From a virus, in the UHGV virus genome UHGV-0109738: 64,000 nucleotides of DNA. One strand, given 5' to 3'. The notes beneath the pieces were generated by a model. The model had not been told where the DNA came from. It saw only the letters and a program-made list of their open reading frames with translations, and searched no databases. The position numbers and the translations under genes are program-made. Positions 3,299 through 3,715 of this stretch are shown one piece after another; position 1 is the first letter of the stretch, and the number at the start of each line of letters is the position of its first letter.

Positions 3299-3439
3299 CT
3301 GCTTATCCATCCTGATAATCAAAGTGCCTAAATTTTTGACCAAATCTGGTCAGGGCTAGAGTTGTTGCGGGATCCGGCTGATATCACATGGCAAAACCAC
3401 CGCTTAACCAATTGATAGGATTCAATTCTTTTAGCGTCT

Positions 3440-3600
3440 CGTCATATCGTTTAAAACGATCAAAAACAACCTCATGATAGCCAATGGCTATCATAAATAA
3501 ATATTCGATCGATAAAAACAATTAATAACCGATCAATATCATTGTTTTAATCGTTAAAGCCTATCAATAATTAATTATCGATCTTTTATATCGATCATGA
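3440..3600. promoter_or_regulatory. GATC-dense regulatory region with a perfect 19-bp palindrome
   Basis: Five GATC sites within ~150 bp (six within ~235 bp counting 3371), each in a CGATC(A/T) context, plus palindrome tgatagccaatggctatca at 3476-3494; lies between divergent genes 2768-3298 (-) and 3716-4204 (+). Confidence 0.35.
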
Positions 3601-3715
3601 TTTCAAGTTCTGATAGCCTTGCAACGCCGAGACCGACGCCATGAGCTTGGTGCTGTAGGACGTATAAAACGTAGCAAAGCTCTGTGAGCAGGTTCAGTCT
3701 CTTTAACTCATTTAC

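What the first reader, a model, noticed from the sequence alone, without database searches (positions are those of the whole stretch)
3361..3715. GATC-dense intergenic region with a perfect 19-bp palindrome
Six GATC sites in ~235 bp (far above chance for a 4-mer), mostly in the same CGATC(A/T) context, plus the perfect palindrome tgatagccaatggctatca. Clustered Dam sites in promoters are the hallmark of methylation-dependent phase-variable switches and of SeqA-bound regions; the region separates a lipoprotein gene and a membrane-protein gene.
Basis: partly seen in the sequence, partly recalled or inferred. Interest (0 to 1): 0.45.

Follow-up and report, generated by a model that had tools for sequence, protein, structure and literature searches.

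The report
Conserved OxyR/Dam epigenetic switch candidate
The GATC-rich spacer is very probably an undescribed DNA-methylation (Dam) plus OxyR on/off switch, built like those of Salmonella opvAB and phage P22 gtr, that sits upstream of a lipoprotein/membrane-protein operon on the tcpC (ROD21-like) genomic island and is conserved across many genera of enteric bacteria.

Summary
Six GATCs lie at 3371-3596 and a perfect 19-bp palindrome at 3475-3493, in the 432-bp spacer between a SEN1982-family lipoprotein operon (minus strand) and a DUF4755 gene (plus strand). The window is an E. coli B2 tcpC/serU island.

In this sequence alone the cluster is only marginally unusual (simulated P about 0.15 per 64 kb). 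Conservation settles it. In 45 related loci from more than 20 genera of Enterobacterales, the core GATCs are kept at fixed spacing (13/49/25/49 bp) in 45, 45, 43, 43 and 38 loci. This holds even where the lipoprotein is only about 50% identical.

The palindrome is one of five or six phased OxyR half-sites (ATAGnTnnnAnCTAT), spaced 31/31/42/31 bp. Consensus positions are conserved (0.92) and N positions vary (0.41). The weaker half-sites carry the GATCs. Two tandem triads lie 73 bp apart, combining the layouts of P22 gtr and opvAB.

I conclude it is a predicted Dam/OxyR phase-variation switch for the lipoprotein operon, and possibly also for the divergent one. No methylation, binding or expression data exist. 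I found no published description. It is a new member of a known kind.

The parts
3299..3730 (.). Intergenic spacer between the divergent lipoprotein operon (minus strand) and the DUF4755 operon (plus strand). The conserved switch module occupies about 3405-3598.
   Evidence: ORFs and RefSeq annotation of identical loci. Query part 107-300 (window 3405-3598) is the portion conserved in other E. coli islands.
3593..3596 (.). GATC1, the site farthest from the lipoprotein gene. It forms the outer arm of half-site E and lies 13 bp from GATC2, like the GATC pairs of gtr.
   Evidence: Retained in 38 of 45 anchored relatives.
3580..3583 (.). GATC2, the inner arm of half-site E.
   Evidence: Retained in 43 of 45.
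3531..3534 (.). GATC3, at the edge of conserved element X, 49 bp from GATC2.
   Evidence: Retained in 43 of 45.
3507..3510 (.). GATC4, overlapping the CGAT arm of half-site B'.
   Evidence: Retained in 45 of 45.
3458..3461 (.). GATC5, nearest the promoter, overlapping the ATCG arm of half-site D.
   Evidence: Retained in 45 of 45.
3371..3374 (.). Sixth GATC (GGATCC). It is not part of the conserved module.
   Evidence: Present only in close relatives.
3581..3595 (.). Half-site E. It reads ATCGATATAAAAGAT on the lipoprotein strand and matches 7 of 10 OxyR consensus positions.
   Evidence: mean 6.6/10 in 45 relatives. Member of repeat family D1.
3550..3564 (.). Half-site A, a strong site. It reads ATAGGCTTTAACGAT and matches 8/10 here.
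   Evidence: mean 8.8/10 in relatives; ATAG invariant; T6 87%, A10 78%.
3519..3533 (.). Element X (ATCGGTTATTAATTG). It is strongly conserved but a poor OxyR match (5/10). It sits where a third half-site of the upstream triad would be.
3508..3522 (.). Half-site B' (ATTGTTTTTATCGAT, 8/10).
3475..3493 (.). The 19-bp perfect palindrome. It contains half-site C (3477-3491, ATAGCCATTGGCTAT), which matches 8/10 here and 10/10 in 29 of 45 relatives.
3446..3460 (.). Half-site D (ATCGTTTTAAACGAT, 8/10), nearest the promoter. It resembles the OxyR(A) half-site of P22 gtr.
   Evidence: 8/10 in 45 of 45 relatives.
3405..3432 (-). Nearly invariant block AAAAGAATTGAATCCTATCAATTGGTTAA. It contains a match to the IHF core WATCAANNNNTTR at 3405-3417. 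Its role is unknown: an IHF site, or the start of the transcript.
   Evidence: The core match is not rare in this window (9 found, 5.4 expected), so the support comes from its invariance across loci.
3428..3455 (-). Best conserved candidate promoter for the lipoprotein operon. The -35 (TTTAAA here, TTACAA in most relatives) lies inside half-site D and an A-rich -10 lies 16-17 bp downstream. It is weak and unmapped.
   Evidence: 30 of 48 relatives reach at least 8/12 at this position. The window's own copy fails the tool's promoter threshold.
2768..3298 (-). SEN1982-family lipoprotein gene (c2401 in CFT073), the first gene of the operon presumed to be controlled.
2482..2757 (-). Gene for a 91-aa membrane protein with a zinc ribbon and two membrane-spanning segments (SEN1981A family), the second gene of the operon. 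It is the most constant partner of this type of switch.
3731..4204 (+). DUF4755 membrane-protein gene, divergent from the switch. It may be co-regulated.
4236..4602 (+). SEN1984-family (BamE-like) lipoprotein gene, frameshifted in this strain.

Best explanation
The spacer carries an epigenetic ON/OFF (phase-variation) switch of the OxyR/Dam type. It controls transcription of the minus-strand operon that encodes a SEN1982-family lipoprotein and a 91-aa membrane protein with a zinc ribbon. It may also control the divergent DUF4755/SEN1984 operon.

Proposed mechanism. Reduced OxyR tetramers bind pairs of half-sites about 31 bp apart. The region offers two tandem triads, E-A-X and B'-C-D, offset by 73 bp. 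In each triad a strong central half-site without a GATC (A or C) is flanked by weaker half-sites whose consensus-deviating bases create GATCs. OxyR can therefore occupy alternative pairs, B'-C or C-D, and by analogy E-A. The pair that is occupied shields its GATC from Dam. The unoccupied flanking site becomes methylated, and methylation then blocks OxyR from binding there. Each configuration is thereby copied through replication.

By analogy with gtr, C-D occupancy would cover the likely -35 and give OFF, with GATC 3458 unmethylated and 3507 methylated. B'-C occupancy would activate and give ON, with the opposite methylation pattern.

What is shown: the sites, their phasing, their conservation, and the link to the lipoprotein operon. 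What is inferred: OxyR as the binding protein, sensitivity to methylation, bistability, which configuration is ON, and the position of the promoter.
For: 1. The module travels with the lipoprotein operon. Window 3405-3598 is conserved at 75-79% in other E. coli islands whose plus-side genes differ. It sits at a fixed distance upstream of the first lipoprotein gene in 45 of 50 loci from more than 20 genera.
2. The GATCs are retained in 45, 45, 43, 43 and 38 of 45 loci. The dominant spacing is 13/49/25/49 bp, and 24 bp in this window.
3. Scoring against ATAGnTnnnAnCTAT gives four hits of at least 8/10 within 119 bp. That is the window's maximum, with 41 such hits in all 64 kb. The only pairs of hits spaced 30-33 bp in the whole window are here.
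4. In 45 relatives the A and C half-sites average 8.8 and 9.2 out of 10. Their consensus positions have a pairwise identity of 0.92, against 0.41 for the N positions. T6 and A10 are kept in 73-87%.
5. In B', D and X, the bases that depart from the OxyR optimum and so create GATC (ATCG, CGAT) are invariant, and in E the C of ATCG is kept in 87%. opvAB works on the same principle (PMC4856963).
6. Positive controls scored the same way gave P22 gtr as 8/10-10/10-8/10 at 32/32 bp and agn43 as 8/10+8/10 at 32 bp. The GATC1/GATC2 pair is 13 bp apart, as in gtr (PMC2909390).
7. The strong sites A and C are 73 bp apart, as are OBSA and OBSC and the non-methylated GATCs (-178, -105) of opvAB (PMC4856963, PMC7708049).
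8. An independent repeat finder recovers the half-sites as one repeat family.
9. A related single-triad switch sits directly upstream of a homologue of the same small membrane protein in another type of island.
10. All hosts are Enterobacterales, which have Dam and OxyR (established knowledge).
Against: There is no experimental evidence of any kind for this locus: no methylome, OxyR binding, transcription start site or single-cell expression data.

Half-site spacing is 31 bp, against 32 bp in gtr and agn43 and 32/41/32 in opvAB.

Element X is conserved but is a poor OxyR match (5/10), so a second factor may be involved.

The promoter is not identified. The tool finds no acceptable sigma-70 promoter for the operon in this window, and the conserved candidate is weak.

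The OxyR assignment rests on a 10-position consensus, not on a calibrated model. The single-sequence GATC statistic is not significant.

Some relatives run the same operon without the switch and have an XRE-type repressor gene in its place. The switch is therefore not obligatory for the operon.
Confidence: 0.65

Rival explanations
1. It is a Dam-sensitive switch, but the protein that reads the TGATAG-N7-CTATCA boxes is not OxyR. It would be another LysR-type regulator (as HdfR is for std) or a factor encoded on the island.
For: T-N11-A boxes are generic for LysR-type regulators. The spacing is 31 bp rather than 32. Conserved element X and the invariant 3405-3432 block do not fit OxyR. The islands encode their own DNA-binding proteins, including an H-NS-like protein, a RepL/winged-helix protein and a helix-turn-helix protein (PMC10655114).
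Against: The match goes beyond the generic box to the OxyR-specific ATAG/CTAT arms and the T6/A10 positions. The D and E sites closely resemble gtr and agn43 sites that are bound by OxyR (PMC2909390). The module is conserved across islands whose other gene content differs.
Confidence: 0.12
2. It is an ordinary OxyR-regulated promoter without heritable switching. The GATCs would be by-products of half-site sequence (CGAT resembles CTAT).
For: Several GATCs arise from ATCG/CGAT arms that are one base away from the OxyR arms.
Against: The suboptimal C/G bases that create GATC never revert to the OxyR optimum in 45 relatives. The 31-bp spacing suits reduced OxyR, not the oxidised form that mediates stress induction and uses 22-bp spacing (Toledano 1994, as cited in PMC2909390 and PMC4856963). 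Triads that offer alternative, mutually exclusive site pairs are the hallmark of the known switches.
Confidence: 0.08
3. It is a replication, transfer or SeqA-sequestration element of the mobilisable island: an origin-like AT-rich region with a GATC cluster.
For: The region is AT-rich (38% GC) and GATC-dense with an IHF-like core. The island carries RepL and MobQ genes.
Against: No DnaA box scores above background. The module keeps a fixed distance to the lipoprotein start codon, not to repL or mobQ. The conserved inverted boxes with variable spacers look like regulator sites rather than iterons.
Confidence: 0.04
4. It is a Pap-like Lrp/Dam switch.
For: One 10/11 match to the pap GATC box (TCGATCTTTTA at 3578).
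Against: No GATC pair lies 102-103 bp apart. The TTTTA part falls on positions that vary among relatives. The Lrp consensus score is at background level. No PapI/PapB-like gene is adjacent.
Confidence: 0.03
5. The GATC cluster is a chance cluster, and the palindrome is an intrinsic terminator or a hairpin without function.
For: The single-window GATC statistic is weak (P about 0.15). The scan tool calls the palindrome plus its T-run terminator-like.
Against: The GATCs and box arms are conserved across genera. The centre of the palindrome varies in relatives, so no long stem is conserved. No gene upstream on that strand needs terminating.
Confidence: 0.02

Closest known systems
Salmonella enterica opvAB (STM2209-STM2208) OxyR/Dam switch (PMC3350482, PMC4856963)
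   Same: Both have tandem units 73 bp apart. In both, two strong half-sites that match the consensus alternate with weaker half-sites that embed GATCs, and further GATCs lie just outside the strong sites. The spacing suits reduced OxyR. Both loci are horizontally acquired, low in GC and encode small envelope proteins. In both, variability is confined to the non-consensus positions (PMC12902445).
   Different: opvAB has four GATCs and four half-sites spaced 32/41/32 bp. Here there are five GATCs and five or six elements spaced 31/42/31/31 bp. The cargo differs: OpvA/OpvB control O-antigen length, whereas here the cargo is a lipoprotein plus a zinc-ribbon membrane protein. opvAB is confined to S. 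enterica, while this module occurs in more than 20 genera. I could not compare the opvAB sequence directly because it was not retrievable here.
gtr operon switch of phage P22 and Salmonella (PMC2909390)
   Same: Both have a triad of weak(GATC)-strong-weak(GATC) half-sites that offers two overlapping OxyR sites. Both have a GATC pair 13 bp apart within one half-site (here E). Half-site D resembles gtr OxyR(A) in sequence (15 of 21 bases). The promoter-proximal half-site probably overlaps the -35 in both.
   Different: gtr has one triad, four GATCs in two pairs, and 32-bp spacing (GATC-N16-ATAG). Here there are two triads, single GATCs in B', D and X, and 31-bp spacing (N15). The cargo also differs (glucosyltransferases).
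agn43 (flu) OxyR/Dam switch of E. coli
   Same: GATCs are embedded in OxyR half-sites of the ATCG...CGAT type, and the flanking sequence is very similar (CGATCAATATC, TATCGATCG).
   Different: agn43 has a single OxyR site of two half-sites with three GATCs, located downstream of the promoter, where OxyR acts only as a repressor. It has no alternative activating site.
pap-family Lrp/Dam switches
   Same: Both follow the general logic in which a protein and Dam compete at two sets of GATCs, giving heritable states.
   Different: pap uses a different protein (Lrp with PapI), has GATCs 102-103 bp apart, and has no ATAG-N7-CTAT boxes. None of the pap-defining features is met here.

Membership tests
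OxyR/Dam phase-variation switches (agn43, gtr, opvAB) | A cluster of GATC sites in the regulatory region that overlap or directly flank OxyR half-sites. | tested here: met
   Five GATCs lie in 139 bp. GATC1/2 fall in E, GATC4 in B', GATC5 in D and GATC3 at the edge of X.
OxyR/Dam phase-variation switches (agn43, gtr, opvAB) | Half-sites match the OxyR dimer consensus ATAGnTnnnAnCTAT. | tested here: met
   The window scores 8, 8, 8, 8 and 7 out of 10. In relatives A averages 8.8 and C 9.2, with C at 10/10 in 29 of 45, and T6 and A10 are conserved. Controls scored the same way gave gtr 8/10/8 and agn43 8/8.
OxyR/Dam phase-variation switches (agn43, gtr, opvAB) | Half-site spacing appropriate for the reduced OxyR tetramer, about 32 bp centre to centre. 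| tested here: inconclusive
   The spacing here is 31 bp (E-A, B'-C, C-D) and 42 bp (A-B'). It is 32 bp in gtr and agn43 and 32/41/32 in opvAB (PMC4856963). All half-sites are in helical phase, but 1 bp closer than in the known switches. The same N15 geometry recurs in other candidate switches.
OxyR/Dam phase-variation switches (agn43, gtr, opvAB) | Alternative, mutually exclusive OxyR site pairs, each covering a different subset of GATCs. | tested here: met
   At the level of architecture only. The triad B'-C-D shares the central site C, and a second triad, E-A-X, lies 73 bp upstream.
OxyR/Dam phase-variation switches (agn43, gtr, opvAB) | GATCs and consensus positions are conserved in evolution while non-consensus positions drift. 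| tested here: met
   GATC retention is 38-45 of 45. Consensus positions have identity 0.92, against 0.41 for N positions. The same pattern is reported for opvAB (PMC12902445).
OxyR/Dam phase-variation switches (agn43, gtr, opvAB) | OxyR binds the region, and GATC methylation prevents binding. | not testable with these tools
   Requires EMSA or footprinting with OxyR(C199S) on unmethylated and Dam-methylated DNA, or ChIP.
OxyR/Dam phase-variation switches (agn43, gtr, opvAB) | Opposite, heritable methylation patterns in ON and OFF lineages, and bistable expression that depends on dam and oxyR. | not testable with these tools
   No methylome or single-cell data for this locus were found in the paper library.
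Pap-like Lrp/Dam switches | Two GATC boxes 102-103 bp apart inside Lrp sites, with adjacent papI/papB-like genes. | tested here: not met
   The GATC distances are 13, 24, 49, 62, 73, 86, 87, 122 bp and larger, with none at 102-103. The Lrp consensus score is at background level. No PapI/PapB-like gene is present.
Origin-type GATC clusters (oriC, P1 oriR; SeqA sequestration) | DnaA boxes or iterons combined with GATC repeats next to replication genes. | tested here: not met
   The best DnaA-box match is 6 of 8, which 99.5% of random 432-bp pieces of the window equal or exceed. The module is tied to the lipoprotein gene, not to repL or mobQ.
Fur/Dam switch (EAEC sci1 T6SS) | A Fur box overlapping the GATCs. 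| tested here: not met
   The best Fur-box match is 13 of 19, which 20% of random pieces of the window reach.

The most novel reading that the evidence does not exclude
The two tandem triads form an epigenetic switch with more than two states, or one that acts in both directions. In this reading, one array of OxyR sites and five GATCs co-ordinately sets the expression of two divergent envelope operons: SEN1982 lipoprotein with the zinc-ribbon membrane protein on one side, and DUF4755 with the SEN1984 BamE-like lipoprotein on the other. It would do so on ROD21-like mobilisable islands throughout the Enterobacterales. The result would be heritable subpopulations that differ in a surface property, for example phage or pilus receptor exclusion, or host interaction (SEN1982 mutants are attenuated in mice, as cited in PMC10655114). 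It would also be one visible member of a much larger, mostly undescribed set of OxyR/Dam switches carried by mobile elements, including ones upstream of fimbrial and EAL-domain genes.
Probability: 0.2. Interest if true: 0.7.

Novelty: new member of a known kind. Interest (0 to 1): 0.5.

Why it matters
Only a handful of OxyR/Dam epigenetic switches are characterised: agn43, gtr and opvAB. This one is a strong, easily testable prediction in heavily used strains, namely CFT073, Nissle 1917, 536, EPEC E2348/69 and S. Enteritidis P125109 (ROD21). About 12% of complete E. coli genomes carry it, as do more than 20 genera.

It would mean that envelope proteins of a virulence-associated island are made in only a heritable subpopulation of cells. 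That island also encodes TcpC and a Thoeris system, and its SEN1982 gene contributes to systemic colonisation. Subpopulation expression would affect how bulk transcriptomes, Tn-seq fitness data and vaccine or antigen studies are read.

The depth of conservation also gives a natural data set on which positions of such a switch are constrained. The hybrid layout, two gtr-like triads at the opvAB spacing, may help explain how OxyR occupies non-adjacent half-sites, which is an open point in the opvAB model.

Tried and rejected
- The single-sequence statistics (Markov simulation) gave P about 0.15, so the GATC count alone was rejected as evidence.
- The sigma-70 promoter scan of the spacer found no credible promoter for either operon. 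Its terminator-like call on the palindrome was rejected because the stem is not conserved.
- Rfam returned only a meaningless sub-threshold hit.
- DnaA, Fur, Lrp and CRP consensus scans were at background level. The single pap GATC-box match was rejected because it has no partner at 102-103 bp and is not conserved.
- The IHF core match is not statistically rare in this window. It is kept only as a hypothesis because the block is invariant.
- The function of the cargo could not be resolved. Pfam, NCBIfam, PHROGs, PADLOC and PDB sequence searches gave nothing beyond a lipoprotein signal peptide and DUF4755. The AlphaFold2 model of the lipoprotein, built from 32 homologues, was too poor for a fold search (mean pLDDT 59.5).
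- Eight full-text literature searches, plus targeted reading, found no description of this regulatory region and no methylome data for it.
The comparison with opvAB therefore rests on published coordinates.
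Full report
**Where we are.** Window 2700-4300 is 99.8-99.9% identical to E. coli B2 strains: CFT073, Nissle 1917, ATCC 25922 and others. The region is the tcpC/serU island. In order it carries mobQ, tcpC, a ThsB-like TIR gene, a ThsA Macro-domain gene, a small membrane-protein gene and a lipoprotein gene. Then comes the spacer in question, followed by a DUF4755 gene and a frameshifted SEN1984-family lipoprotein gene. The island is the E. coli counterpart of ROD21 of Salmonella Enteritidis, and the lipoprotein is c2401/SEN1982 (PMC3198454). The spacer runs from 3299 to 3730. The lipoprotein gene (2768-3298) and the 91-aa membrane-protein gene (2482-2757) are read leftwards. 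DUF4755 (3731-4204) is read rightwards.

**Checking the observation.** GATC occurs at 3371, 3458, 3507, 3531, 3580 and 3593. Five of the six are CGATC. The palindrome TGATAGCCAATGGCTATCA is at 3475-3493. Six GATCs per 250 bp is the densest spot in the window. However, 400 Markov simulations of a 64-kb sequence produced such a cluster somewhere in about 15% of runs. The count in this one sequence is therefore suggestive, not 'far above chance'.

**What makes it real is conservation.**
- A distant BLASTN of the spacer against 5,426 complete E. coli genomes hit 670 of them. In 130, only window 3405-3598 was conserved (60-80% identity), which is exactly the GATC cluster.
- In those islands the plus-side gene differs or is absent, but the minus-side lipoprotein/membrane-protein operon is always present. 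The module therefore belongs to that operon.
- Using the lipoprotein as a probe, I fetched 51 loci from one genome per species: Klebsiella, Enterobacter, Yersinia, Raoultella, Brenneria, Dickeya, Pectobacterium, Citrobacter, Cedecea, Mangrovibacter and others.
- To avoid selecting on GATC, I anchored on a conserved block that contains no GATC (CTATCAATTGGTTAA). Forty-five loci have the anchor, and they retain the five GATCs in 45, 45, 43, 43 and 38 cases.
- The lipoprotein itself is only about 50% identical in many of these loci.
- S. Enteritidis ROD21 has the same module upstream of SEN1982.
- The sixth GATC (3371) is not conserved.

**What the palindrome is.** In the alignment only the arms TGATAG and CTATCA are conserved and the seven central bases vary. 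That pattern is the OxyR dimer half-site ATAGnTnnnAnCTAT, the consensus used to define the gtr and opvAB switches (PMC2909390, PMC4856963).
- Scoring the ten specified positions along the window gives 41 hits of at least 8/10 in 64 kb. Four of them lie within 119 bp here, at 3446, 3477, 3508 and 3550, and a 7/10 site lies at 3581.
- These are the only hits in the window spaced 30-33 bp apart.
- Read in the direction of the lipoprotein gene, the half-sites are:
  - E (3581-3595, 7/10)
  - A (3550-3564, 8/10)
  - B' (3508-3522, 8/10)
  - C (3477-3491, 8/10, the palindrome)
  - D (3446-3460, 8/10)
  - Spacings are 31, 42, 31 and 31 bp, so all lie on one face of the helix.
- In 45 distinct relatives A averages 8.8 and C 9.2, with C at 10/10 in 29 of them. 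The consensus T6 and A10 are kept in 73-87%.
- The five N positions vary freely: pairwise identity is 0.41, against 0.92 for consensus positions. That selective pattern is the strongest argument for OxyR specifically.
- The window's perfect palindrome is a lineage-specific variant (spacer CCATTGG). It is a poorer match to the consensus than the usual sequence.
- An independent repeat finder groups D, B', A and E into one repeat family.

**Where the GATCs sit.** The strong sites A and C contain no GATC. The weaker sites do. Their arms read ATCG or CGAT instead of ATAG or CTAT, and that one-base departure from the OxyR optimum is what creates the GATC. In B', D and X those bases are invariant across the 45 relatives, and in E the C of ATCG is kept in 87%. 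Selection is therefore keeping sites that are both suboptimal for OxyR and methylatable. This is the principle shown experimentally for opvAB, where improving OBSB or OBSD locks the switch (PMC4856963).
- Each strong site lies at the centre of a symmetric unit, GATC-N15-ATAG-N7-C(T/G)AT-N15-GATC.
- The two units are direct repeats 73 bp apart, or 74 bp in most relatives.
- GATC1 and GATC2 are 13 bp apart within half-site E, as in the gtr half-sites (PMC2909390).

**Controls and comparison with known switches.**
- Scored the same way, P22 gtr gives 8/10-10/10-8/10 at 32/32 bp with GATC pairs 13 bp apart.
- K-12 agn43 gives two 8/10 half-sites 32 bp apart with three GATCs.
- Published opvAB coordinates place half-sites at -148, -116, -75 and -43. 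The perfect sites OBSA and OBSC are 73 bp apart, the weak sites carry GATC2 and GATC4, and the non-methylated GATCs at -178 and -105 are also 73 bp apart (PMC4856963, PMC7708049).
- The present module therefore reads as two gtr-type triads, E-A-X and B'-C-D, arranged at the opvAB repeat distance.
- There are three differences. The spacing is 31 bp rather than 32. There are five GATCs. Element X (3519-3533) is conserved but matches OxyR at only 5/10.

**Promoter and direction of control.** The promoter is not mapped.
- The scan tool finds nothing convincing in this window.
- Across relatives the best recurring candidate has its -35 (TTACAA or TTTAAA) inside half-site D, with an A-rich -10 located 16-17 bp downstream. 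Thirty of 48 relatives reach at least 8/12.
- If that candidate is right, OxyR on C-D would block the promoter (OFF) and OxyR on B'-C would activate it (ON), as in gtr. This is inference.
- Between D and the start codon lies a nearly invariant block (3405-3432) that contains an IHF-core match. The core match alone is not rare, and the role of the block is open.
- Whether the divergent DUF4755/SEN1984 operon is co-regulated is unknown. It is plausible for two reasons. In Raoultella the divergent gene is an intact SEN1984-family lipoprotein gene. In another island type a related single-triad switch drives a homologue of the 91-aa membrane protein followed by a SEN1984-like lipoprotein.

**Rivals.**
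- A different LysR-type or island-encoded reader of the boxes cannot be excluded without binding data.
- An ordinary oxidative-stress OxyR promoter is unlikely, given the reduced-form spacing and the preserved suboptimal, methylatable arms.
- Origin-like, Fur, CRP, Lrp and pap readings fail their defining features.
- The terminator-like call on the palindrome is not conserved.
- No known RNA family matches the region.

**Cargo.** The lipoprotein family is confined to Enterobacterales and has no Pfam domain beyond the lipobox. No relative has a solved structure. The AlphaFold2 model was too uncertain to use. SEN1982 mutants of S. Enteritidis are reported to be attenuated in mouse organs (cited in PMC10655114). 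Some relatives (Photorhabdus, Erwinia, one Enterobacter) have replaced the switch with a divergent XRE-type repressor gene. In a Sodalis endosymbiont the module is decaying.

**Novelty.** Eight full-text searches, with reading of the ROD21, tcpC, gtr, opvAB and methylome papers, found no mention of this regulatory region and no methylation data for it. The library covers open-access papers only. I classify the finding as a new, predicted member of the OxyR/Dam switch family with a hybrid architecture. It is not a new kind of system.

**Verdict.** Confidence in the OxyR/Dam phase-variation mechanism is about 0.65, and interest is 0.5.

Noticed in passing
window 50-808 (+), 940-1449 (-), 1586-2422 (+): The window begins inside tcpC (TIR NAD+ hydrolase). 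Next to it lies a Thoeris-like anti-phage pair: a ThsB-like TIR protein and a ThsA Macro-domain protein (PADLOC E-values 7e-91 and 4e-128).
   Followed up: partly
window 4236-4602 (+): The SEN1984-family (BamE-like) lipoprotein gene downstream of DUF4755 is frameshifted in this strain and in CFT073. It is intact in Raoultella (L018 2003-2380) and in S. Enteritidis.
   Followed up: partly
L063, L075, L078, L083, L086 (viral contigs); e.g. L075 1080-1134: A gtr-like triad (GATC-N16-ATAGnTnnnAnCTAT-N16-GATC, with a GATC pair 13 bp apart) lies about 250 bp upstream of a FimA-type fimbrial subunit gene. It is a candidate OxyR/Dam switch for a fimbrial operon.
   Followed up: partly
L072 5140-5192, L082 12238-12290: The same GATC / OxyR half-site / GATC unit lies directly upstream of a 230-aa EAL-domain protein gene. 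Other copies precede unknown secreted or membrane proteins (L066, L070). This suggests a larger, undescribed set of such switches on mobile elements.
   Followed up: partly
L064 9394-9463 and genes 9539-10597 (also L076, L090): A single-triad version of the switch lies next to a MobQ-type relaxase gene. It drives a homologue (38% identity) of the 91-aa zinc-ribbon membrane protein, then a SEN1984-like lipoprotein and a further lipoprotein. The small membrane protein appears to be the constant partner of this family of switches.
   Followed up: partly
L010, L011, L014 (about 100-500 bp upstream of the lipoprotein start codon, which is at 3001 in L010 and L014 and at 1967 in L011): In Photorhabdus, Erwinia and one Enterobacter the same lipoprotein operon lacks the GATC/OxyR module. 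It has a divergent XRE-type helix-turn-helix gene in that position, which is an alternative way of regulating the operon.
   Followed up: partly
L008 (Candidatus Sodalis endolongispinus), -220 to -80 upstream of the lipoprotein gene: The module is recognisable but is decaying in this endosymbiont: two core GATCs now read AATC and the downstream block is truncated.
   Followed up: no
window 3477-3491 and L003 (E. coli TW10590): The unusual CCATTGG spacer that makes the palindrome perfect recurs in an otherwise diverged (about 78% identical) E. coli module. This could be recombination or convergent change. It removes the consensus T6 and A10, so it might alter the bias of the switch.
   Followed up: no
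window 3611-3618: A further lone TGATAGCC half-box lies beyond half-site E on the DUF4755 side. It is present only in this island type.
   Followed up: no
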